From contig JBGAQY010000010.1 in the NCBI GenBank assembly GCA_044220495.1, positions 8,126-72,125 of the forward strand: a stretch of 64,000 nt of DNA, in the 5' to 3' direction. Under the pieces are notes generated by a model. That model was not told the origin of the DNA, ran no database searches, and worked only from the letters and a program-made list of their open reading frames with translations. A program made the translations under genes and the position numbers. Positions 1,761 through 60,874 of this stretch are shown in pieces. Position 1 is the first letter of the stretch. Each line of letters begins with the position of its first letter. Source of the stretch: Acidimicrobiales bacterium (GTDB taxonomy: Bacteria > Actinomycetota > Acidimicrobiia > Acidimicrobiales > JBBSGY01).

Positions 1761-1830
1761 CTTTCACCTACCCAAGAAGCCCAACAATCGGCGTTTCTGG
1801 GCCCTGTTTTGGGCTTCTTGGGTGGGTGAA
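1761..1830. repeat. Palindromic intergenic element, copy a (TTTCACCTAC...GTGGGTGAAA)
   Basis: The 23-nt arms 1761-1783 and 1808-1830 are reverse complements with a single T:G position. The termini are shared with 7 other copies in the window. Confidence 0.85.
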
Positions 1831-1843
1831 AGAGGGTTTCGTT

Positions 1844-1911
1844 CTTTCAACCGCGCGATATGACCAAACACGGGCATGTTGGTTGCTGTTTTTGGCTATA
1901 TCGCGTGGTTG
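1844..1911. repeat. Palindromic intergenic element, copy b
   Basis: TTTCAACCGCGCGATATGACCAAA ... TTTGGCTATATCGCGTGGTTGA. Same family as the copies at 20988 and 54686, and directly adjacent to copy a. Confidence 0.8.
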
Positions 1912-1914
1912 ACA

Positions 1915-2038
1915 CGGCTCGCCCAGCGCCGTGGGCACCAGCTAGGTAAGTGAGCGAGAGTTTCGTGGCGGCTTGCCCAGCGCCGTGGGTACCAGTTGGT
2001 TAAGTAGACGAGTGGCTCGCCCAGCGCCGTGAGCACCA
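1915..2038. repeat. Three tandem copies of a 26-nt core GGCT(C/T)GCCCAGCGCCGTG(G/A)G(C/T)ACCAG
   Basis: Cores lie at 1915-1940, 1969-1994 and 2013-2038, separated by related spacers (..GGTAAGTGAGCGAG.. and ..GGTTAAGTAGACGAG..). Confidence 0.8.
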
Positions 2039-2058
2039 GCCCGCGATGACCGGTGGAG

Positions 2059-2301
2059 CTAGTCCTTCTCGATGAAGATGCACTCGCCAGGACACTCTTC
2101 GGCCGCCTCGATGACTGAGTCTTCGAGATCGGTCGGAACGGCAGCGAGACCAGCCGAGCCGCCAGGGTCGCTATAGACCTTGTCGGTGTCTTTCACGTAG
2201 GCGAGACCGTCGTCAAGCAGGGTGAACACGGCAGGAGCTATCTCTTCACAGAGACCATCACCGGTACACAGGTCTTGATCGATCCATACTTTCATCGCCA
2301 T
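2059..2301 (-). CDS. Small ferredoxin (single-cluster actinobacterial type)
   Basis: 80-aa ORF with motifs CTGDGLC ... ECPGECI, typical of 3Fe-4S/4Fe-4S ferredoxins. Confidence 0.8.
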
Positions 2302-4307: not shown

Positions 4308-4381
4308 CTTTCGCCTGCGCGATACGACCGAAACCACCAGCGCCACAGTGCCTCTTTTTGGACATATTGCGTAGGTGAAAG
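4308..4381. repeat. Palindromic intergenic element, copy c
   Basis: CTTTCGCCTGCGCGATACGACCGAAA ... TTTGGACATATTGCGTAGGTGAAAG. Several arm differences are G:T-compatible. Confidence 0.7.
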
Positions 4382-20924: not shown

Positions 20925-20987
20925 CGCGCTGCTGGGGGCCCACCCCACGCCTGGGGCATGCAGCTTGGCGCCCGCCGCATGGCGCCC

Positions 20988-21057
20988 TTTCAACTACGCG
21001 ATATGACCAAAACATGGCCTGTTTGGCTGCCGATTTGGCTTTATCGCGTGGGTGAGA
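20988..21057. repeat. Palindromic intergenic element, copy d
   Basis: TTTCAACTACGCGATATGACCAAA ... TTTGGCTTTATCGCGTGGGTGA. The left arm is identical to that of copy e. Confidence 0.85.
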
Positions 21058-21099
21058 GGTGGTCCCGTGCGAAGTGAGGTGTCTAAGTAGACTGCGCTG

Positions 21100-25027: not shown

Positions 25028-26656
25028 GTGTCAGTACCTCCCGCCGCTGTCTATTCGACTGAAGATTTCACCGCCGATGAAGAGGCCATCCTCCGCCGTT
25101 ACTTCACCAATCTCGATGAGCCCGTCTTCGCTCTCGTAAACTTGCCCGAGGTCGTGAAGGGCGCTCTGTTTGCTCGCTATTCACGCACTCACAAGAGTCT
25201 GCGTCGCCTCTTCCTCGACGAGTTTGTCGGCGACCTCGACATGAGTGGTGATCTCACAGTTGACGCGACCGTCGGCGTCGATCGCGCTGAGAAGCTTTAC
25301 GACCGCGTCTTCTTCGAATACGGCGACGACTCAGTTGCGCAACTCGGTGGAGTTCACCTTGCCTGCGAGCAAGCGTCGATCGTGCTCACCAAGATCCTTG
25401 AGTGGGGTCGCCTTATGGCCTATCTCGAGCAAAGCACGCGCTACATCGCGTATGACGATCGCCTCGCGAACGGCCGCTACCGCTACTACCGCGACCCCGA
25501 GATTCTCGATTCACCCTTAGGTGCTCGCTACATCGGCGACATGGATCGCATGTTCGACACCTACGCCGAACTTCTGAGCCCCATGCAAGCGCATTTCGCG
25601 CAAGTCTTTCCGAAGGCACCAGGCGACTCAGACTTTGTGCACCGCGCCTCGATCAAGGCTCGAGCGTTTGACGCAATCCGTGGGCTCTTGCCCGCAGCGA
25701 CCGTTTCAAATGTCGGCGTCTACGGCACGGGCCAGGGATACGAAGCGATGATCTTGCGGATGCGGGCGCACCCAATGCCCGAGGTGCGCGACTACGCAGG
25801 GTTGATGCTCAAAGAACTGCGCAAGGTTGTGCCGTCGTTTCTGAAACGCGTTGACCGTCCAGATCGTGGCGGTGCGTGGTCGGCATACCTCGAAACCAAT
25901 CGCGTGATGATGGAAGAAGTCACAGACGCGCTGCTTGGCAACGACACACCGGCCGAAACACCCTTTGTGCAACTGACTGACTTCGATCCTGAGGGCGAAG
26001 ACAAGATGATTGCGGCAATGCTGTACCCCTTCTCACACTTGCCCGAGTCGCAAATTTTGGCGCGCGTCGAGAAGATGAGCGGCGAAGAGAAGGCTCAAGT
26101 CGCACGTACATACTCCGGACAGCGCTCTAATCGCCGCCACAAGCCCGGCCGAGCCCTCGAGCGGCTCGACTACCGATTCGACGTTTGCTCCGACTACGGA
26201 GCGTTTCGCGACCTCCAGCGCCACCGCATGTTGACGATTGAGTGGCAAGACCTTTCGCCCAACAACGGCTACAACATGCCCGACGCCATCAGTGCAGCGA
26301 AGCTCGAAGGTCGCTGGGAAGAAGCAATGGGGCGCTCAGCCGATCTGTATCACGCGCTGACAGAAAGCTTCCCGGCGCAAGCCAGCTACGCAGTTTCTTT
26401 GGCGTACCGCATCCGCTACACGATGCAGTTCAATGCGCGTGAAGCAATGCACATGTTGGAACTCAGAACGAGTCCGCAGGGCCACCCCGAGTACCGACGG
26501 ATATGCCAAGAAATGCATCGTCTTATTGCCGAACAGGCTGGTCATCACATCGTTGCCGAGTTGATGGCCTACGTCGACCACGAGGATTACGAACTTGGTC
26601 GACTCGATGCCGAGCGACGCGCCGAAGAGCGCCGAAACAACTCGACCACTGCCTGA
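25028..26656 (+). CDS. Double-length ThyX-like (Thy1-fold) FAD-dependent thymidylate synthase homolog
   Basis: 542 aa. A ThyX-like signature segment FRDLQRHRMLT lies in the C-terminal half. About twice the length of canonical ThyX. Confidence 0.6.
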   Translation: MSVPPAAVYSTEDFTADEEAILRRYFTNLDEPVFALVNLPEVVKGALFARYSRTHKSLRRLFLDEFVGDLDMSGDLTVDATVGVDRAEKLYDRVFFEYGDDSVAQLGGVHLACEQASIVLTKILEWGRLMAYLEQSTRYIAYDDRLANGRYRYYRDPEILDSPLGARYIGDMDRMFDTYAELLSPMQAHFAQVFPKAPGDSDFVHRASIKARAFDAIRGLLPAATVSNVGVYGTGQGYEAMILRMRAHPMPEVRDYAGLMLKELRKVVPSFLKRVDRPDRGGAWSAYLETNRVMMEEVTDALLGNDTPAETPFVQLTDFDPEGEDKMIAAMLYPFSHLPESQILARVEKMSGEEKAQVARTYSGQRSNRRHKPGRALERLDYRFDVCSDYGAFRDLQRHRMLTIEWQDLSPNNGYNMPDAISAAKLEGRWEEAMGRSADLYHALTESFPAQASYAVSLAYRIRYTMQFNAREAMHMLELRTSPQGHPEYRRICQEMHRLIAEQAGHHIVAELMAYVDHEDYELGRLDAERRAEERRNNSTTA

Positions 26657-26733
26657 CCGACGCGCAAACGCGCTTGCAGGGTCAATGAACGTCTCCTAAC
26701 CTGCCTCGCTCGGGGGCGGAGGAAGGTAAACGC

Positions 26734-28263: not shown

Positions 28264-28809
28264 TTGAGTGCGGACAGGGTCTATGCTGCCGCCTCGAGTG
28301 GGCCCCGAAAGGCAATTGAAATGTCAGACGACATGGACGAAATCGAAGAAGAAGAACTAGAAGAAGCGAGCGATGGCGACATCGAGCTCGATGAAGACGA
28401 AGACTTTCCCGGCGACGACGATGACGACGCCGTAGAACCCTTCATCAGCGATGACGACGAGGTCGGCGACGACCTTGAGGAAGAAGATGAAGAGCCCGCC
28501 GCCGCTGCCGGCAAAAAGGCCAAGGTCGCCGACGCCGAAGAAGACGACGATGACGAAGAAGAAGACGGTGAAGATGTCGAGGCCAGCCTTGATGTCATTC
28601 TCAAAGAGCGCATCGCTGTTGAAGACGACGAAACCGAAGAAGACGACGATGACGACGACGGCGCCCCATCAGATGACGATCGTGGCGACTCCAACCGCAA
28701 GGTCGCCCCACGACGTCCTGACGAGTTCGTCTGTCAGTCTTGTTTCTTGGTGAAGCACCCGAGTCAGCTGGCTGACAAGGCTCGGCAACTATGCCTCGAC
28801 TGCGTCTAG
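28264..28809 (+). CDS. DUF4193-family acidic protein with C-terminal zinc ribbon
   Basis: The C-terminus DEFVCQSCFLVKHPSQLADK..LCLDCV matches the DUF4193 hallmark. A very long D/E-rich N-terminal region precedes it. Alternative ATG start at 28321. Confidence 0.75.
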   Translation: MSADRVYAAASSGPRKAIEMSDDMDEIEEEELEEASDGDIELDEDEDFPGDDDDDAVEPFISDDDEVGDDLEEEDEEPAAAAGKKAKVADAEEDDDDEEEDGEDVEASLDVILKERIAVEDDETEEDDDDDDGAPSDDDRGDSNRKVAPRRPDEFVCQSCFLVKHPSQLADKARQLCLDCV

Positions 28810-34445: not shown

Positions 34446-34967
34446 CGACGTTCGAGCACCGTCCTGAAGACCGAAATGTGTGCAATCGAGGCACGCCGTG
34501 GGCGGCTCCCTCCCGGGTTCAGGTAACGAGAGGTCTTGTTGCGCGACGCCACGGGATATCCAGGGTTACACCATGGTTATCCAGGATTAATGAACATAAG
34601 GTCCATTATGTTCATTACGGCAGCGTAAAGGGGTACGCCGATTTGCGCAGCAATTAGCGGATCGTTCGCATCGGCGGCTTGCGCTCGCACTCACACTCGC
34701 ACAGCAACGGACACCGGCAGCTCGCCTGAGCTCGAAGCCGTCGTGCGGGCTTGACGTCAACCCGCGGGTTGACCCCGAGCCCGAACAAACCTTGATGCCG
34801 GCCAAGCCAACGTGCCGAGCCCACCGACGGTCCGACCGGGCAAACTCAACCGGCGGGTCCAACCGGACCCTGCGCCAAGCCAACTGGCTTCGCCGGCCTC
34901 AGCCCGCCGTCAGTTGGCTTGGCCGACCCCAGCCAACTGTGAGCCGGTTGCCGGTGGTTCACCTGAT

Positions 34968-35007
34968 GCGGGCTCGGGGTCAAGTCACACGTTGACCCCG
35001 AGCCCGC
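34968..35007. repeat. 40-nt perfect palindrome, type 2 (GCGGGCTCGGGGTCAA-N8-TTGACCCCGAGCCCGC)
   Basis: 16-nt perfect inverted arms. A structurally matching copy lies at 54491-54530. Confidence 0.85.
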
Positions 35008-35165
35008 ACACGCAAGTAATCGAGTCGGCAGGCCGGGGCTGTCCGGCAGTTTCCGGCCGCCCGGCTGTCGTGACGTTTAGCCCGTTTGCTGACACTTGCA
35101 CTCAAAGGTCGATACGGCCGATTTAGTCTGATTTGCCCCGCACCGACTAGTCCGGGACAAATACG

Positions 35166-53957: not shown

Positions 53958-54247
53958 CTGAGATCTCTCCCTGCCCGTATCCAGGGATAATGCCGCCGCA
54001 GGCCGACTTGAGTCGGCGCAAACCCCTGGCTGTTGATCGGCATCTTTCAGGGGCGACTTGAGGGTGGATTTCGCACCACCCTCAAACGCGAGCAAGCGCC
54101 GCAACCCCGTGCAAAGTCGCAGCGCTTGCTATGTAAGGCTCCCCGACCCAAAGGGTGCCAACCACTGAGGGTACCGACTCCCCCAGCTCGATCAATGACG
54201 AAAGTATTACAATACGTAAGATCGCCTCAGCTCCGTTGCACGTTGGT

Positions 54248-54386
54248 GGCCGTCGCTGACCTCGCCGCCACTGGCCGTCGCTGGCCGCTGGCCGCCGGCT
54301 GGCTGTCGCTAGCCGGCACTGGCTGTCGGCCGCTGGCCGGAGCTGACTGGCCGTCGCTGACCTCGCCGCCACTGGCCGTCGCTGGC
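54248..54386. repeat. Identical 38-nt direct repeat pair within a low-complexity CTGGCCG/TCGC tract
   Basis: GGCCGTCGCTGACCTCGCCGCCACTGGCCGTCGCTGGC occurs at 54248-54285 and 54349-54386 (period 101). Confidence 0.85.
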
Positions 54387-54490
54387 TGTCGGCCGCCGCT
54401 GACCTCGATGTCAGATACTCGCCGGCCGCCGCTGGCCTCGAGTACCACGCCACCCGGGCCGCCCGCCACCGACTGACACAACTCTGCCGT

Positions 54491-54685: not shown

Positions 54686-54756
54686 TTTCAACTACGCGAT
54701 ATGACCAAATCTGGGCCGGATCCGGCCTTGTTTTGGGCTTTTCGCGTGGGTGAAAG
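54686..54756. repeat. Palindromic intergenic element, copy e
   Basis: TTTCAACTACGCGATATGACCAAA ... central GGCCGGATCCGGCC ... TTTTGGGCTTTTCGCGTGGGTGAAAG. Confidence 0.85.
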
Positions 54757-54773: not shown

Positions 54774-55556
54774 CTAAGACTGAGGGAAAAGCTCGAGGCC
54801 GAGCCTGACGGCAGCTTCGACGGGCGAATAGTTGCCGTCGCTCCGTTCTAGGTTGAGCTCATCTTTCGACACGAGCCCTGGCTGGCTCATGAAGCGAGCG
54901 GAATCTCCGTGGTGGGCCTGAGCCGCATGCACAAGGAATGGATGACACAAGTAAACGTCGCCCGCTCGTCCGACGACGTAATCGACAGCGCAATCATCCG
55001 AGGCGGCATCGGCAAGTTTCGCCAGTTCGTCGAACGTAAGACCGTTCTCGCCCCGCTGAGCCAATAGGCGGGGCACTCGCAAGTGTGAACCGACCCGCAG
55101 GCGAGTGGGGGCATCATTCATACCCACATCCGAGAAAAGAAAAAGCATCAGCAGTGCGCGCCCTCGTGAAACGAGGTTGACGCTCCAGGCGCCGTGATCG
55201 TTCTCGAAACTCGCATCGAGGTGCCAACCTGTGTCACCAGCACCGGCCTCGCTTGGAAATCGAATAACAAAGTTCCCTGGGTCACTTCGTGGCCACCACC
55301 GATCGACGCCCACCAACTGATCGAACGCCGAACGCAGACTCTCGGTTCGCACGGCTTCAGCGAACAGCGGCCCGTCACCGCTGAGGTGAACTACAGGCTC
55401 AACCCAGGTCGACTTGTCAGACTCGCTCTTGCCCATTTGTGTCCACAAAGCAGCCCGCAATGCGGCCGCTAACTCGCTCGGGAAAGCTTCATCGACTCGC
55501 ACATAGCCGTTGCGAACAAACGCATCAACCTGCTCACGCGTCAGCACCCCTCGCAT
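54774..55556 (-). CDS. Phytanoyl-CoA dioxygenase (PhyH) family Fe(II)/2-oxoglutarate oxygenase
   Basis: 260 aa. N-terminus LTREQVDAFVRNGYVRVDEAF, a WHLD (HxD) iron motif and a distal His (CHPFLVHAA). Confidence 0.65.
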   Translation of the reverse strand: MRGVLTREQVDAFVRNGYVRVDEAFPSELAAALRAALWTQMGKSESDKSTWVEPVVHLSGDGPLFAEAVRTESLRSAFDQLVGVDRWWPRSDPGNFVIRFPSEAGAGDTGWHLDASFENDHGAWSVNLVSRGRALLMLFLFSDVGMNDAPTRLRVGSHLRVPRLLAQRGENGLTFDELAKLADAASDDCAVDYVVGRAGDVYLCHPFLVHAAQAHHGDSARFMSQPGLVSKDELNLERSDGNYSPVEAAVRLGLELFPQS

Positions 55557-55585: not shown

Positions 55586-55654
55586 CATTTGGACCAAGCG
55601 GTATAGCCAGATCGGGCAGATCCGCCTCGTTTGGTCGTTTCGCATAGTTGAAAG
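55586..55654. repeat. Palindromic intergenic element, degenerate copy f
   Basis: The right arm TTTGGTCGTTTCGCATAGTTGAAAG is family-typical. The left arm matches copy e at 14 of 20 positions. Confidence 0.55.
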
Positions 55655-55731: not shown

Positions 55732-55806
55732 TCGGGCTGACAGGATTTGAACCTGCGACCCCCGGTCCCCCAGACCGGTGCGCTAACCAAGCTGCGCCAC
55801 AGCCCG
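55732..55806 (-). tRNA. tRNA-Pro (anticodon GGG)
   Basis: 75-nt cloverleaf folded by hand: acceptor CGGGCTG/CAGCCCG, D stem GCGC/GCGC, anticodon stem CCGGT/ACCGG with loop CTGGGGG, T arm GCAGG-TTCAAAT-CCTGT, discriminator A. CCA is not encoded. Confidence 0.9.
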
Positions 55807-57470: not shown

Positions 57471-58925
57471 TTAAGAATGAGAATGCGCCGACATCGCCGG
57501 CGTTTTGATGGTGAGCGCGTTGCGCAGAGACACGCCGTCAGTGGCAACAATCTCGACCGGGCGAGGTAAATCAGCCGGAGTCAGGCCGTCGAGGAACTTG
57601 CCACCAGAAAGACAGACATCGGGCAGCAAATAACGGTGGCCCTGCGGCTCATTGGCGAGTGTGCGAGCAATGTCTTCGCCGACCATCAATCCAGTGACGC
57701 CGATGTTCCCACCAAAGAACTTGTTCTCTACCGTGATGATACGGACGTTGGCACCGCTTTCTGAACGCAGGTATCCCAACAAAGGTTCGAGCACCTGCGC
57801 ACCATAACGACCGGTGAGAATGCCGACCGGCGCAGTCTTGCGCGGCAGCAACGTGACTGATCCAGGGTTTTGTTCTGCGAGCCGAGGTGCCCGATAGCCC
57901 TCGGCTGGCGCGTCGACCGATGCAAAGAATCCGGTCTGCACACCAATTGCATCGTCCGACAAACCAATCACTTCAGCCTCGAACGCACGGGCCATGCCGA
58001 TGCCGTCTTCGTGCATCTTGAAACCCTCGTAGGTTTCAGCGCTTGGAAATGGGCGCTTGGCGAGGAGGTAGTACTCGTCGGCGGCAAACACCATGCGATG
58101 GCCGAGGCAATTGAGGAAGGTCGACTGCCAACGCTCAACAATGTCGACAACGCGCTGCGCTTCGGCCAGCGTGTGTGGACGCATTGCCGCCTCTTTCGAG
58201 TAGCGACTCACACCAAGCGGAACTACAGCAACGTTTGCCATGTCGGGATACTCATCGAGCACTCCTGCAAGCGTGTCGTCGAGGATGTCACCGTCGTTTA
58301 CACCCGGACACACAACGACTTGTCCGTGCACTTCTATTTTGTTGTTCAGTAGTTCGCGCAACCAACGCAAAGAAGTGGCGCCGCGCCGATTGCGCAACAT
58401 GCGAGCGCGAATGTCGGGGTTGGTTGCGTGAATCGAAACGTAGAGCGGCGACAGTCGCTCGGTGATTACACGCTCGAGGTCGGCCTCTGTAAAGCGCGTG
58501 AGCGTGGTGAAGTTTCCGTACAAAAACGAGAGGCGGTAGTCGTCGTCTTTTGTGTAGAGAGACTTACGCATGCCCGGCGGCAACTGATAGATGAAACAAA
58601 ACTCGCAGTGGTTGTCGCACGTGCGAATCTGATCGAATAACGCTGAGTGCACCTCGATGCCAAGTGCTGCATCGTCGGCCTTTTCGACCTCGAAGGCGAG
58701 CTGCAATCCCCCACGGCTCACTTCGATTTCGAGCTCGGGTTCGTCAGTCAGCAACTGGTATTGGATGATGTCGCGCGGCGACTGTCCATTGATGGACACC
58801 AGCTCATCGCCTACCTCGATTCCCGAGAGAGCAGCGGGAGATCCAGGCGCGACAGAAATCACCCTCGGGAACGACATAAGCCACCAGCCTAGGCCGTAGC
58901 CTCCGCTATCCCCACATGAGGCCAT
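57471..58925 (-). CDS. DUF512 radical-SAM-related protein with N-terminal PDZ domain
   Basis: PDZ (GSPAALSGIEVGDELVSING), Cys cluster CDNHCEFCF, and YRLSFLYGNFTTLT. The start is possibly Met 58877. Confidence 0.8.
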   Translation of the reverse strand: MASCGDSGGYGLGWWLMSFPRVISVAPGSPAALSGIEVGDELVSINGQSPRDIIQYQLLTDEPELEIEVSRGGLQLAFEVEKADDAALGIEVHSALFDQIRTCDNHCEFCFIYQLPPGMRKSLYTKDDDYRLSFLYGNFTTLTRFTEADLERVITERLSPLYVSIHATNPDIRARMLRNRRGATSLRWLRELLNNKIEVHGQVVVCPGVNDGDILDDTLAGVLDEYPDMANVAVVPLGVSRYSKEAAMRPHTLAEAQRVVDIVERWQSTFLNCLGHRMVFAADEYYLLAKRPFPSAETYEGFKMHEDGIGMARAFEAEVIGLSDDAIGVQTGFFASVDAPAEGYRAPRLAEQNPGSVTLLPRKTAPVGILTGRYGAQVLEPLLGYLRSESGANVRIITVENKFFGGNIGVTGLMVGEDIARTLANEPQGHRYLLPDVCLSGGKFLDGLTPADLPRPVEIVATDGVSLRNALTIKTPAMSAHSHS

Positions 58926-58962
58926 TCGCGACCGACCCCCAGCCGACTGGGACGAAAGCCCT

Positions 58963-59030
58963 TTTCACCCACGCGAGAAAGACCAGATCCGGGCCCATGG
59001 GGCTCGATTCTGGTCTTCTCGCGTAGGTGA
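58963..59030. repeat. Palindromic intergenic element, copy g
   Basis: TTTCACCCACGCGAGAAAGACCAGA ... TCTGGTCTTCTCGCGTAGGTGA. Confidence 0.8.
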
Positions 59031-59053
59031 GTTCAGGCGGGCTGAGTGGGCCG

Positions 59054-60694
59054 CTAGTTGCGGATGGTGACCGCCGAGCTCTGAGCCGAGCTGCCACCAG
59101 CGGTAGTCACGGAGACGCTGTAGATGTAGTTGAGCCCTCCGATAAGGCCGTCATTGTTGAACGTGTTGGTTGTCGACGTGGCGATGGGAACTCCAGCGCG
59201 GTAGATCGTGTAGTACTTCGCTCCACTAACGGTGTTCCACGTCAGCGTGATGTGCGATGCCGTCACCGTGGTTGCTCGCAGTCCCGTCGGCGCGACTGGA
59301 GGCTGCGGCTTCGCCGTCGTCGTGGTCGGCTTGATAGTCGTGGTCGGTTTGATAGTCGTGCTCGGCTTGATCGTCGTAGTCGGCTTTGCGGTCGTTGGAG
59401 ACGTTGATGGCTTTGCGGTAGTTGGCGATGTCGACGGCTTGGTTGTCGTCGTAGTTGGCTTGACGGTCGTGCTCGTCGCTGGCGTGCTGGCAGTTCCGCC
59501 GAATGGCTGCAACACAACGCCCGCGCTCTTCGGCGAACCGCTGTGCACCAAAGACTCTTGGTGTGTCACGTCGTCGAATGCAAAGCCATAAGCCTTGCCA
59601 TCGACCATGTGGTCGTGAATGATCGCCGAGTAGTGGTTGGTCAGAGTTTGGTTGTAGAACTTCGACGCATCAGCAACCGGTTCCACCAAAGACGTACCAA
59701 GCGTGCCGCGCTGCAGGGCCGCGCAAAGCGTGCGGGCGATTGGTCCCGCAGTTAAGTCGTTGGGCGCAAGGATGTTGCCATCGCAGTCCCAAACATCAGA
59801 CGTGCTCGGCTTGGTGAATTGCGCAACTTGCGCGCCTGACGTGTTGGTGAATGACATCACGTTGCCTGACGTCCGTCCGAAGAATTTGATCGATGGTTGG
59901 TCTTCGAAAGGAACGACAGTGAGCGTCTTTGCGCTGTAAGCACTCCACGCCGATGAGATGTAGGGGTCTAGGTATGTTGCGCTCATCAAGCCCGCATCAG
60001 TTGCTTTGCCAGGTGCAAGCACGCGCACGACATTTCCATTGCCGTCGGTTATCACGGTTTTGGAATAGCCCGGCACCTGCTTGATGAGATCGATAACTTG
60101 TTGACGTCCACCACCTACCAAGTCACCTGTTTTGGTGAACACGCCCGACTGATCGGTGACGTTGACTTGATGCGGGATTGCGAACTGGTCGACTTGCGAT
60201 GAGTTCAACCACAAACCCGAATCGTTGTATGTGAACTCCGACCAATCGAAGAGCTTGGTTGCGTTCTTGTCGGCCGGACTCCACGGAGCGGGCTGAACCA
60301 GACCGGCGTCGACGAGCGAGAAGTTCAGTTTCTGACCGATGGAAAAGTACAGACGACCCGACAAGTTCTTTGGGATGTTGATCGTCGTCGTAGCACCCGT
60401 TGTTGGGCCCGCTATCGAAACGTCAGGAGCGGCAACCAGCGTCGGACCGCCCGGCAAAGACCACGGTGTGAACCTGCCCGCTGAGTTCACGTAACCAAGC
60501 TTGTTGGAGTTCAGGTCGACCCCCAACATGTAGAGGTAAACCGGGCCCGCCTGCCCCGAGTTATTGGTCACCTTGAGCGGCAGTATGTCGAGCGTTGCTG
60601 CATCGGCGTCGATCTGGCCAAAAGCCGAAACGGCGAGCAGGGCAGCGGCCGCAAGCGACGCGCATTTCTTGAGGTGCCGGCGGGGCAATTTCAT
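59054..60694 (-). CDS. Secreted GH64-like beta-1,3-glucanase with Thr/Pro linker and C-terminal fibronectin type III domain
   Basis: Signal peptide. FDWSEFTYNDSGLWLNSSQVDQFAIP and AYGFAFDD resemble GH64 (thaumatin-like fold) glucanases. The linker has KPTTTI/TAKPSTSP repeats. The FN3-like tail reads APTGLRATTVTASHITLTW...YTIYR. Confidence 0.7.
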   Translation of the reverse strand: MKLPRRHLKKCASLAAAALLAVSAFGQIDADAATLDILPLKVTNNSGQAGPVYLYMLGVDLNSNKLGYVNSAGRFTPWSLPGGPTLVAAPDVSIAGPTTGATTTINIPKNLSGRLYFSIGQKLNFSLVDAGLVQPAPWSPADKNATKLFDWSEFTYNDSGLWLNSSQVDQFAIPHQVNVTDQSGVFTKTGDLVGGGRQQVIDLIKQVPGYSKTVITDGNGNVVRVLAPGKATDAGLMSATYLDPYISSAWSAYSAKTLTVVPFEDQPSIKFFGRTSGNVMSFTNTSGAQVAQFTKPSTSDVWDCDGNILAPNDLTAGPIARTLCAALQRGTLGTSLVEPVADASKFYNQTLTNHYSAIIHDHMVDGKAYGFAFDDVTHQESLVHSGSPKSAGVVLQPFGGTASTPATSTTVKPTTTTTKPSTSPTTAKPSTSPTTAKPTTTIKPSTTIKPTTTIKPTTTTAKPQPPVAPTGLRATTVTASHITLTWNTVSGAKYYTIYRAGVPIATSTTNTFNNDGLIGGLNYIYSVSVTTAGGSSAQSSAVTIRN

Positions 60695-60803
60695 GGTGAA
60701 ATCCTTCGTTCAAAAGTGCGTCCCGCCTGTTTGTCCAAGGTACCGACGGCTCTACTGGGGGTCAACGGTTCACCGTGTCGAGGTTCTGAATCGGCGAATC
60801 CTC

Positions 60804-60874
60804 TTTCAAGTACCCAAGAAGCCCAAAACACGGTCTGTTCCAGCCAGGTTTTGGGCTTCTGCGGTAGGTGAAAG
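60804..60874. repeat. Palindromic intergenic element, copy h
   Basis: TTTCAAGTACCCAAGAAGCCCAAAAC ... GTTTTGGGCTTCTGCGGTAGGTGAAAG. Same subfamily as copy a. Confidence 0.85.

What the first reader, a model, noticed from the sequence alone, without database searches (positions are those of the whole stretch)
1761..1911. Dispersed family of roughly 70-nt palindromic intergenic elements (8 copies in 64 kb)
All eight copies are intergenic: 1761-1830, 1844-1911, 4308-4381, 20988-21057, 54686-54756, 55586-55654 (degenerate), 58963-59030 and 60804-60874. They share inverted termini TTTCA(A/C)CTAC(G/C)CG ... CG(C/G)GT(A/G)GGTGAAAG and fold into 20-25-bp hairpins with a 12-24-nt loop. At least two subfamilies exist, with internal arm CCCAAGAAGCCCAA (a, h) or GCGATATGACCAAA (b, d, e). 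Many arm differences are G:T-compatible, which hints at selection on an RNA hairpin. This looks like a REP/MITE-like element family. I cannot match it to a named family, and no cognate transposase (for example a REP-associated tyrosine transposase) lies in the window.
Basis: seen in the sequence. Interest (0 to 1): 0.6.

Follow-up and report, generated by a model that had tools for sequence, protein, structure and literature searches.

The report
Palindromic repeats partnered with nuclease gene
The eight hairpin-forming repeats belong to a family of about 88 copies found only in this uncultured Acidimicrobiia genome. Two copies frame a gene for a DNA-binding nuclease, an arrangement like the known REP/RAYT repeat-and-enzyme systems but with an unrelated enzyme that has not been described in print.

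Summary
All eight copies exist at the stated coordinates, are intergenic and fold far better than shuffled sequence. The genome (3.0 Mb) holds about 88 copies of the 72-nt palindrome: 26-bp arms and a variable loop of about 20 nt. There are two subfamilies whose stems differ by compensatory changes (52 and 32 copies).

The family was not found in 40 relatives or in the public genome and metagenome contig collections. It has no RAYT gene, no target-site duplication, no IS-sized partner and no strand polarity. G·T mismatches (89) equal A·C mismatches (82), so the RNA-wobble hint is not supported.

Copies favour gene 3' ends and convergent intergenic regions. Sites a/b and c are empty in two sister genera.

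Two copies frame a gene at G000:C23:25749-26651 that encodes an AbiEi-type winged-helix domain fused to a DUF559 (Vsr-like) nuclease domain. Two further paralogues in the same genome are each framed by their own dispersed palindrome family (23 and 20 copies). Homologues across the order carry palindromes of their own.

I read this as a REPIN-like repeat family that goes with a non-RAYT nuclease. The pairing is well supported; mobilisation by the nuclease is an inference. This scan had already noted the same pairing on another window of this genome and in at least 29 other genomes. I found no published description.

The parts
1761..1832 (.). Copy a, subfamily 2 (CCCAAGAAGCCC arms). It lies between the convergent genes xseB and a ferredoxin gene, 50 nt after the xseB stop.
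   Evidence: nhmmer 63.5 bits. RNA fold -49.7 kcal/mol, z = -9.6. Context. In sister genus G002 the two stop codons are 6 nt apart, so the site is empty there.
1844..1912 (.). Copy b, subfamily 1 (CGCGATATGACC arms). It sits in tandem 12 nt after copy a.
   Evidence: nhmmer 47.9 bits. Fold z = -7.4. Same empty site in G002 as for copy a.
4308..4381 (.). Copy c, subfamily 1, with a 2-nt insertion in the loop. It lies 54 nt after the stop of the proteasomal ATPase (arc/mpa) gene and 24 nt before the next gene.
   Evidence: nhmmer 40.7 bits. Fold z = -7.1. No palindrome follows the orthologous arc stop in G001 or G002.
20987..21058 (.). Copy d, subfamily 1. It lies 62 nt after the PEPCK stop and 41 nt before tatA.
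   Evidence: nhmmer 58.0 bits. Fold z = -5.6. In G002 a different 49-nt palindrome with TTTCAC/GTGAAA ends lies 7 nt after the PEPCK stop, and neither family model matches it.
54686..54756 (.). Copy e, subfamily 1. It lies 17 nt after the stop of a PhyH-type dioxygenase gene (54774-55556, minus strand).
   Evidence: nhmmer 67.9 bits. Fold z = -5.8. Its core GGGCCGGATCCGGCC followed by TTTT is the only copy that the terminator scan flagged.
55588..55654 (.). Copy f, degenerate. It lies 31 nt upstream of the PhyH gene start and 74 nt past the 3' end of tRNA-Pro (55732-55806, minus strand).
   Evidence: nhmmer 25.3 bits, one strand only. Fold z = -2.6. tRNA.
58963..59030 (.). Copy g, subfamily 1. 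It lies 23 nt after the stop of a GH64 beta-1,3-glucanase gene and 37 nt before the start of a radical-SAM/DUF512 gene.
   Evidence: nhmmer 45.2 bits. Fold -50.4 kcal/mol, z = -9.9. Flanking genes.
60803..60874 (.). Copy h, subfamily 2. It lies in the divergent intergenic region between the GH64 gene and ispH (lytB).
   Evidence: nhmmer 60.3 bits. Fold z = -6.7. Context.

Best explanation
The elements are a lineage-specific family ('family A', about 88 copies) of REPIN-like, non-coding DNA palindromes. I propose that they are the cognate sites of a dedicated protein, an AbiEi-type winged-helix DNA binder fused to a DUF559 (Vsr-like, PD-(D/E)xK superfamily) nuclease. Its gene at G000:C23:25749-26651 is framed by two copies of the family. 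SHOWN: the family, its structure and its distribution; the framing of the gene; the fact that two other paralogues in the same genome are each framed by a different dispersed palindrome family; the recurrence of own-palindrome flanks at homologues across the order; and gain and loss of copies between sister genera. INFERRED, with my probabilities: the protein binds the sequence-conserved 26-bp arms, probably as a dimer and in the way AbiEi binds inverted repeats in its own operator (about 0.75). Cutting at or near the palindrome by the nuclease domain seeds copying of the element to new sites, or keeps copies alike through repair or gene conversion, which gives spread without target-site duplication (about 0.35-0.4). 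Because surviving copies accumulate just past gene 3' ends, many probably also act as orientation-independent hairpins at transcript ends. This is a side effect, not the reason the family exists.
For: There are 88 copies, and the stem covaries. The arms are conserved in sequence (75% pairwise identity, 79-83% within a subfamily) while the loops are close to random (39.5%). Nearest-neighbour copies still share 65-80% of their loops. Copies therefore arise by duplication, and afterwards the arms are held by sequence-specific constraint, not merely by pairing. The C23 gene is framed by copies at C23:25570-25639 and 26622-26693. The protein family matches DUF559 in 21 of 24 members, MTES_1575 REase in 17 of 24 and AbiEi_4 in 14 of 24. 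Its profile matches PDB 3HRL, an 'endonuclease-like protein', at E = 4e-8, and the PvuRts1I nuclease domain. D221, E232 and R248 are invariant, and D234 is conserved in at least 90% of sequences. The AlphaFold2 model's best PDB match is the AbiEi antitoxin 6Y8Q, probability 0.97. Paralogue C85:15692-16546 is framed by family B (23 copies). Paralogue C67:150657-151334 is framed by family C (20 copies). The chance of three framed paralogues is about 9e-8. Across the order, 66 of 121 genomes have homologues. Ten to 13 of 29 homologue loci have matching flank repeats, against 1 of 250 control genes, and that one was the C67 paralogue itself (Fisher p = 3e-10). Twenty-nine of 33 loci have a long palindrome within about 300 nt, against an expected 18%. 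The closest homologue, in G002 (55% identity), is framed by a 71-nt palindrome with the same geometry and the same TTTC...GAAA ends. That palindrome is dispersed at 15 or more loci in G002 only. Turnover is evident: sites a/b and c are empty in G001 and G002, and 3 of 4 mappable G002 copies have no counterpart in G000. At the orthologous site of the C23 cassette, G002 has no gene but has one solo copy of its own family. The published parallel is Pseudomonas fluorescens SBW25, where three REP groups each lie next to their own RAYT (PMC3116915).
Against: Dispersal does not follow from the gene. G081 has a framed gene but only about 2-3 copies. G085 has a broken gene and a single copy. G096 has 5 copies. 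My de novo sampling of 400 kb from each of three gene-bearing and three gene-less genomes found no family of 3 or more copies in any of them, so it was inconclusive. Family A is old: nearest-neighbour identity has a median of 79% and a maximum of 88%, apart from one segmental duplicate. There is therefore no sign of current activity. Other genes are also framed by family A copies (PhyH, GH64, arc, RibD_C), so framing alone is not specific. A 59%-identical paralogue (C103) has no palindromes at all, and subfamily 2 has no framed gene. An earlier sceptical check in this scan, on other DNA, reported that its test of 'repeat goes with gene' was not met. Pfam scores for the C23 protein alone fall below the curated cut-offs.
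Confidence: 0.55

Rival explanations
1. Host-function elements. The palindromes are primarily bidirectional transcription terminators, transcript-end stabilisers or binding sites for a nucleoid protein. The copies beside the DUF559 gene are just that gene's autoregulatory operator, as in AbiEi. The nuclease plays no part in spreading them.
For: Of 84 copies with a defined context, 73 face at least one gene 3' end, at a median distance of 76 nt. Convergent regions are enriched twofold (30 observed against 15 expected, p = 2e-4) and divergent regions are depleted (11 against 21 expected by length, p = 0.01). The core has the form A4, GC-rich hairpin, T4, and reads the same on both strands. The N-terminal part resembles the AbiEi fold. 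An earlier follow-up agent on this genome preferred 'own binding sites'. Some genomes have framed genes but no dispersal.
Against: Only 1 of the 8 window copies passes a simple terminator scan, and the number of terminator-like sites equals the shuffled expectation. Eleven copies sit between divergent genes. A terminator role does not explain the conservation of 26-bp arm sequence. It does not explain 88 homologous copies that duplicated loops and all, three parallel families each with its own paralogue, or the absence of the elements from orthologous sites in sister genera. Some copying mechanism is still needed.
Confidence: 0.2
2. Landing pads. The palindromes spread by some other means. The nuclease gene is a selfish, homing-endonuclease-like cassette that recognises a given palindrome family and inserts beside or between its copies. 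The enzyme therefore follows the repeats; it does not drive them.
For: The DUF559/Vsr-like fold is shared with a homing endonuclease ('mobile intron protein' 3R3P appears in the profile search, weakly, E = 0.5). The genes flanking the cassette are not syntenic between genomes. Tandem pairs of family A copies exist that could receive an insertion (5 pairs less than 300 nt apart). Each paralogue matches one family. At the cassette's site G002 has a solo palindrome.
Against: This leaves the origin of 88 copies unexplained. No half-palindromes flank the cassette. The geometry is constant across very different palindromes, with the upstream palindrome about 100-150 nt before the start codon and the downstream one 0-60 nt after the stop. 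That suggests the palindromes travel with the gene and are not found by it.
Confidence: 0.13
3. Classical MITE. The element is a deletion derivative of a DDE-transposase insertion sequence. The autonomous copy is either missing from this 109-contig assembly or extinct.
For: The element has terminal inverted repeats, is small (72 nt), is intergenic and multi-copy, and occurs in subfamilies. Assemblies of uncultured genomes often drop IS copies. One contig (C51) starts inside a copy.
Against: There is no target-site duplication of 2-8 nt above the shuffled control. No solitary arm or IS-sized pair of arms occurs anywhere in the genome; the three extra arms all lie within 40 nt of full copies or overlap one. 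The element has no internal sequence beyond a 20-nt loop. This model does not explain why three nuclease paralogues are framed by three families.
Confidence: 0.1

Closest known systems
REP/REPIN elements with their RAYT gene (Bertels & Rainey 2011, PMC3116915; Nunvar 2010 and Ton-Hoang 2012 from my own knowledge)
   Same: Both are extragenic, multi-copy, hairpin-forming palindromes without target-site duplications. In both, two inverted conserved arms flank a less conserved spacer, one dedicated gene is flanked by copies of the repeat it goes with, and several repeat groups in one genome each have their own enzyme paralogue. Copy number also varies widely between genomes.
   Different: No Y1/HUH RAYT (PF01797) is present. 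The flanked gene instead encodes an AbiEi-wHTH plus DUF559 PD-(D/E)xK-type nuclease. The arms are not themselves small palindromes. The host is Acidimicrobiia, not Proteobacteria. The enzyme family is often multi-copy, and its locus is not syntenic between genera.
AbiEi antitoxin-repressors of type IV AbiE toxin-antitoxin systems (PDB 6Y8Q; operator binding from my own knowledge of Hampton et al. 2018)
   Same: The N-terminal half of about 190 residues matches AbiEi_4 and AbiEi_1 in Pfam and 6Y8Q by fold. A palindrome lies about 100-150 nt upstream of the gene, where an autoregulatory operator would be.
   Different: There is no AbiEii toxin partner. The C-terminal nuclease domain replaces that role. 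A second palindrome follows the stop codon. The 'operator' sequence is scattered 88 times around the genome.
Bacterial MITEs (for example Correia/NEMIS and RUP; from my own knowledge)
   Same: Small size, terminal inverted repeats, intergenic dispersal, subfamilies, and possible effects on neighbouring transcripts.
   Different: No target-site duplication and no matching IS. Almost the whole element is a stem.
Vsr-like/DUF559 nucleases, including PDB 3HRL and the homing endonuclease I-Bth0305I (3R3P)
   Same: The C-terminal domain matches 3HRL at E = 4e-8, with the conserved acidic residues present.
   Different: No function has been published for DUF559 proteins fused to AbiEi domains. I found no paper linking them to repeats.

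Membership tests
REP/REPIN-RAYT system | High-copy extragenic imperfect palindromes that form hairpins from two inverted conserved arms | tested here: met
   88 copies. Only 4 overlap a called gene by more than 20 nt. 26-bp arms, 87% paired.
REP/REPIN-RAYT system | A RAYT gene (Y1 HUH transposase, Pfam PF01797) in the genome, flanked by the repeats | tested here: not met
   No PF01797 match in the 96.8%-complete genome. The same search was positive in 6 control genomes.
REP/REPIN-RAYT system | Each repeat group lies next to its own enzyme paralogue | tested here: met
   This holds in form only, with a different enzyme. Families A, B and C frame paralogues C23, C85 and C67.
MITE (DDE-transposon derivative) | Target-site duplication flanking the element | tested here: not met
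   No direct repeat of 4 nt or more above the shuffled control. 2-3-nt repeats were no better than about twice background at arbitrary offsets.
MITE (DDE-transposon derivative) | An autonomous IS with the same terminal inverted repeats | tested here: not met
   An arm-only HMM at E <= 50 finds no solitary arms away from full copies. The assembly is fragmented, so absence is not proof.
Intrinsic (factor-independent) terminator | A GC-rich stem-loop followed directly by a T-run on the transcribed strand | tested here: inconclusive
   The core has only TTTT followed by GG. 1 of 8 window copies was flagged, and site counts equal the shuffled expectation. No RNA data were available.
Any Rfam RNA family | Reaches the family's gathering score | tested here: not met
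   Only a tRNA in the window. At the loose threshold there were only generic hairpin (miRNA) hits of about 22 bits, against gathering scores of 70-85.
AbiEi-DUF559 gene-plus-palindrome cassette (unpublished; seen repeatedly in this scan) | A gene encoding AbiEi wHTH plus DUF559 nuclease, framed by two copies of one palindrome | tested here: met
   C23:25570-25639 / gene 25749-26651 / 26622-26693.
AbiEi-DUF559 gene-plus-palindrome cassette (unpublished; seen repeatedly in this scan) | Homologues in other genomes carry their own, differently sequenced palindromes | tested here: met
   10-13 of 29 loci have matching flank repeats, against 1 of 250 controls. 29 of 33 have a long palindrome nearby.
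AbiEi-DUF559 gene-plus-palindrome cassette (unpublished; seen repeatedly in this scan) | The framing palindrome is also dispersed in that genome | tested here: inconclusive
   Dispersed in G000 (88, 23 and 20 copies) and G002 (15 or more). Weakly dispersed in G096 (5). Not dispersed in G081 or G085.

The most novel reading that the evidence does not exclude
AbiEi-DUF559 proteins are a second, independently evolved class of repeat-dedicated enzyme, a 'REPtron' without a Y1 transposase. Each paralogue would recognise its own roughly 50-75-nt palindrome and, by cutting it, copy or homogenise that palindrome throughout the genome. That would explain the lineage-specific families A, B and C here and their counterparts across Acidimicrobiales.
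Probability: 0.35. Interest if true: 0.85.

Novelty: new variant of a known kind. Interest (0 to 1): 0.62.

Why it matters
Dispersed extragenic palindromes are well understood only where a RAYT transposase accompanies them, mostly in Proteobacteria. How such repeats arise in other phyla is an open question. Here one genome offers three parallel repeat families, each tied to its own paralogue of a DNA-binding nuclease with no known function. The sister genus has a recognisably related family, and copies have clearly been gained and lost. This yields a concrete, testable candidate for a non-RAYT repeat-maintaining enzyme. It also suggests a function for a widespread family of unknown function: AbiEi-DUF559 occurs in 66 of the 121 genomes sampled in this order. 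For annotation, these 72-nt hairpins mark gene ends and synteny breaks and could be mistaken for small-RNA genes or terminators.

Tried and rejected
1. RNA-level selection. I counted G.T against A.C mismatches (89 vs 82), compared orientation with transcription (24 vs 18), and tested it against GC skew, TA skew and gene-strand bias (all p > 0.25). Rejected. The element has no detectable polarity, and the uniform orientation in the window came from the seed.
2. Target-site duplications. None found.
3. Insertion into pre-existing hairpins. Flank complementarity was -15.3 kcal/mol against -16.1 for shuffled partners. Rejected.
4. An IS with the same ends, searched with arm-only models. None found.
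5. RAYT. None found.
6. The same element elsewhere. It was absent from 40 relatives, from two pattern scans of 185,579 species genomes and from one scan of metagenome contigs. Records of this genome itself may have been withheld from those scans.
7. De novo comparison of palindrome families in 400-kb samples from three gene-bearing and three gene-less genomes. No family of 3 or more copies appeared in any of them, so the test was underpowered and inconclusive. Gene-less genomes are also smaller, which confounds the comparison.
8. Synteny of the cassette between genomes. None within 1.5 kb at the homologues' own loci. At the orthologous site in G002 the gene is absent.
9. A partner gene for subfamily 2. 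The 59%-identical paralogue on C103 has no framing palindromes.
10. Sequencing runs for read-level polymorphism and RNA 3' ends.
11. A shared 7-mer, TCGCGTA, occurs in families A, B and C. I noticed it after the fact (p about 0.006), so I keep it only as a lead.
12. The local repeats at 1915-2063, 34743-35009 and 54247-54408 are not dispersed.

Full report
OBSERVATION

As RNA, seven of the eight fold at z = -5.6 to -9.9 against dinucleotide-preserving shuffles, and the degenerate copy f at z = -2.6. As DNA the seven give z = -3.2 to -9.2. By my rough gene calls none overlaps a gene.

The window is G000:C14:8126-72125, part of a 3.01-Mb assembly of 109 contigs with 57.7% GC. The assembly is 96.8% complete. 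An iterated nhmmer search finds 88 loci in that genome, about 29 per Mb.

The consensus is (C)CTTTCAcCtACGCGAaAAGcCCAAAAc, then about 20 variable bases, then gTTTTGGgCTTtTCGCGTAGGTGAAAG(g). A gap-free alignment of 49 copies gives a 26-bp stem that is 87% paired. Eleven pairs change on both sides. For example, column 14/63 is G-C in 32 copies and C-G in 17, with no mismatch. No shuffle out of 500 reached the observed covariation score.

WHAT IT IS NOT

- Rfam has no family for it.
- The genome has no Y1/RAYT transposase, although the same search is positive in six control genomes.
- There is no target-site duplication.
- The flanks are no more complementary than shuffled flank pairs.
- An arm-only model finds no solitary arms or IS-sized pairs. 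The only extra arms lie within 40 nt of full copies or overlap one.

The element has no polarity. G·T mismatches (89) equal A·C mismatches (82) out of 434 mismatched cells. Orientation agrees with transcription in 24 tandem contexts and opposes it in 18. Orientation is also unrelated to GC skew, TA skew or gene-strand bias. The uniform '+' orientation of the eight window copies is an artefact of seeding the model with them.

DISTRIBUTION

A covariance model built from 49 copies finds the family only in this genome. It was absent from 41 genomes searched in total, two of them from the same family and 38 from other families of the order. Two degenerate whole-element patterns found nothing in one genome for each of 185,579 species, and one found nothing in the metagenome contigs.

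Within the genome, 30 of 84 copies with a defined context lie between convergent genes, against about 15 expected (p = 2e-4). Forty-three lie between tandem genes and 11 between divergent genes, against 21 expected by intergenic length (p = 0.01). The median distance to a facing 3' end is 76 nt.

The window copies lie at these positions:
- a and b after xseB, convergent with a ferredoxin gene;
- c after the proteasomal ATPase gene;
- d after PEPCK and before tatA;
- e and f on either side of a PhyH dioxygenase gene;
- g and h after and before a GH64 glucanase gene.

AGE AND MODE OF SPREAD

Mean pairwise identity is 75% in the arms (79-83% within a subfamily) but only 39.5% in the loop. Nearest-neighbour copies nevertheless share 65-80% of their loop. 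Nearest-neighbour identity overall has a median of 79% and a maximum of 88%, apart from one segmental duplicate that shares its flanks.

Copies therefore arose by duplication of the whole element. The family is old and shows no recent burst. The arms have since been held by a constraint on sequence, not only on pairing.

Comparison with the two other genera of the same family shows gain and loss:
- In G002 the xseB and ferredoxin stop codons are 6 nt apart, where G000 has 348 nt holding copies a and b plus three local repeats.
- Site c carries no palindrome in G001 or G002.
- At site d, G002 has a different 49-nt palindrome with TTTCAC/GTGAAA ends that neither family model recognises.
- In G001 the der and ispH genes are adjacent. 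In G000 two genes and copies g and h lie between them.

THE PARTNER GENE

Earlier notes of this scan gave the organism as an uncultured Acidimicrobiia bacterium. They also pointed to a DUF559 gene framed by a palindrome of about 73 bp elsewhere in this genome. I tested this myself.

Two family A copies, at C23:25570-25639 and C23:26622-26693, frame a 301-codon gene at 25749-26651. The gene's stop codon lies inside the downstream copy.

Alone, the protein scores just below the Pfam cut-offs for AbiEi_4 and DUF559. In an alignment of 24 homologues, DUF559 matches 21 members, MTES_1575 REase 17 and AbiEi_4 14. The profile matches PDB 3HRL ('endonuclease-like protein') at E = 4e-8, and also the nuclease domain of PvuRts1I. 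D221, E232 and R248 are invariant, and D234 is conserved in at least 90% of sequences. An AlphaFold2 model of moderate quality (mean pLDDT 68) has the AbiEi antitoxin 6Y8Q as its best PDB match, with probability 0.97 over about 195 residues. NCBIfam has no model for the protein.

THREE FAMILIES, THREE PARALOGUES

The genome holds at least five paralogues of this gene.
- C85:15692-16546 (49% identity) is framed by a different palindrome, family B (GCTTGTCGCGTAATGGCCGCT...AACGGCCATTACGTTCCATT). Family B has 23 loci in the genome.
- C67:150657-151334 (30% identity) is framed by family C (AGTTGGCACCCTAAGTCGCGTAATACGCGACTTAGGGTGCCAACT). Family C has 20 loci.

Given the copy numbers and about 2,300 intergenic regions, the chance that three of six paralogues are each framed on both sides by one family is about 9e-8.

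Framing alone is not specific, however. PhyH, GH64, the proteasomal ATPase gene and a RibD_C gene are also framed by family A copies. The 59%-identical paralogue on C103 has no palindromes, and subfamily 2 has no framed gene.

ACROSS THE ORDER

Homologues occur in 66 of 121 genomes sampled, often in several copies.

Ten to 13 of 29 homologue loci have matching repeats in their two flanks at E <= 1e-4. Among 250 control genes of similar size there were two such cases. One is an artefact, and the other is the C67 paralogue itself (Fisher p = 3e-10). Twenty-nine of 33 loci have a long palindrome within about 300 nt, against an expected 18%.

The geometry recurs. The upstream palindrome ends about 100-150 nt before the start codon, and the downstream one begins 0-60 nt after the stop. 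Among the closer homologues (39-55% identity) the palindromes are about 70-75 nt, with arms of about 25 bp and loops of about 20 nt, like family A but different in sequence.

In the sister genus G002 the closest homologue is framed by GTTTCCTGCGTCCTTACAGCCGTGA...TCACGGCTGTAAGGACGCAGGAAAC. This palindrome is dispersed at 15 or more loci in G002 and in none of four other genomes.

Dispersal varies, though. G096 has 5 loci, G081 about 2-3, and G085, whose gene is broken, has one.

THE CASSETTE SITE

The genes flanking the homologues in relatives are unrelated to those flanking the C23 cassette. The C23 flanks themselves are collinear in G002 (C70). There, 146 nt replace 1,333 nt, the gene is absent, and a single solo copy of G002's own palindrome family sits in the gap.

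Of four G002 copies whose two flanks both map to one G000 contig, only this site carries family A copies. The other three are empty in G000.

This fits turnover of solo copies in both lineages and an ancestral occupied site that evolved with each lineage's family. It is a single case, and an insertion hotspot would explain it equally well.

INTERPRETATION

The best-supported reading is that these are REPIN-like non-coding palindromes that go with a dedicated AbiEi-wHTH/DUF559 nuclease.

The published parallel is close. In Pseudomonas fluorescens SBW25 three REP groups each lie next to their own RAYT (PMC3116915). Membership of REP/RAYT fails on the defining enzyme, so the claim is 'works like', not 'is one'.

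That the protein recognises the arms is a strong inference. It rests on the sequence-level conservation of the arms, the paralogue-to-family specificity and the AbiEi fold. That its nuclease domain copies or homogenises the repeats is a weaker inference, which I put at about 0.35-0.4. The variable dispersal, the age of the family and the inconclusive result of my gene-bearing versus gene-less sampling all weigh against it. So does an earlier sceptical check in this scan, which found that a test of 'repeat goes with gene' was not met on other DNA.

The rivals are:
- host-function hairpins with the gene's copies serving as a mere operator;
- palindromes as landing pads for a homing-type cassette;
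- a classical MITE whose transposase is unassembled.

A secondary role at transcript ends is plausible from the 3'-end bias, but it is not shown.

NOVELTY

Full-text searches found no paper linking DUF559 to palindromic repeats or to AbiEi, and none on RAYT-type REPs in Actinobacteria.

Within this scan the pairing has been noted before, on another window of this genome (e1-2410174, the same family by sequence) and in at least 29 other genomes.

- the whole-genome census of family A;
- the negative tests for polarity, target duplication, RAYT and a matching IS;
- the three-family, three-paralogue mapping within one genome;
- the empty and shared orthologous sites in sister genera.

Noticed in passing
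G000:C85:15596-16635 and 21 other loci (outside the window): Family B is a second dispersed palindrome of about 65 nt (23 loci). It frames nuclease paralogue C85:15692-16546. Ten of its 23 copies lie 14-110 nt downstream of tRNA or tmRNA genes, a strong enrichment given only 53 such genes in the genome.
   Followed up: partly
G000:C67:150548-151633 and 18 other loci (outside the window): Family C is a third dispersed palindrome, about 46 nt and nearly perfect (20 loci). It frames nuclease paralogue C67:150657-151334. No copy lies near a tRNA gene.
   Followed up: partly
window 1915-2063: Three tandem copies of a unit of about 50 nt (CGGCTCGCCCAGCGCCGTGGGCACCAG...) follow copies a and b directly. 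The unit is not dispersed elsewhere in the genome. The whole 348-nt intergenic region is absent from sister genus G002.
   Followed up: partly
window 54774-55556 and 57471-60694: The PhyH dioxygenase gene framed by copies e and f has no DNA-level counterpart in G001 or G002. The radical-SAM/DUF512 and GH64 glucanase genes next to copies g and h are missing between der and ispH in G001. Family A copies therefore sit at synteny breaks.
   Followed up: partly
window 34743-35009: A pair of 41-nt inverted arms, 80% complementary and 185 nt apart, includes a 42-nt palindrome TGCGGGCTCGGGGTCAAG...CCCCGAGCCCGCA. De novo clustering put it in a small family of 4 copies.
   Followed up: no
window 54247-54408: A block of degenerate direct repeats of about 35-51 nt (TGGCCGTCGCTGACCTCGCCGCCAC...) lies in a 957-nt stretch with no called gene, upstream of copy e. 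It is local only.
   Followed up: partly
G000:C47:46015-46788 and its upstream flank: A possibly frameshifted nuclease paralogue (54% identity, matched in two pieces) lies beside tandem repeats of about 100 nt that end in tRNA-3'-like sequence (GGTTCAAATCCC). This looks like repeated attachment sites of an integrated element.
   Followed up: no
G000:C43:453-475 and C94:74710-74733: Two loci each have a lone left arm of family A about 40 nt upstream of a full copy. C16:47038-47134 has a duplicated right arm. These may be remnants of tandem pairs or of slippage.
   Followed up: no
window 28264-28809: An ORF with long Asp/Glu-rich low-complexity repeats (GAAGACGACGA...) dominates the window's direct-repeat list.
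   Followed up: no
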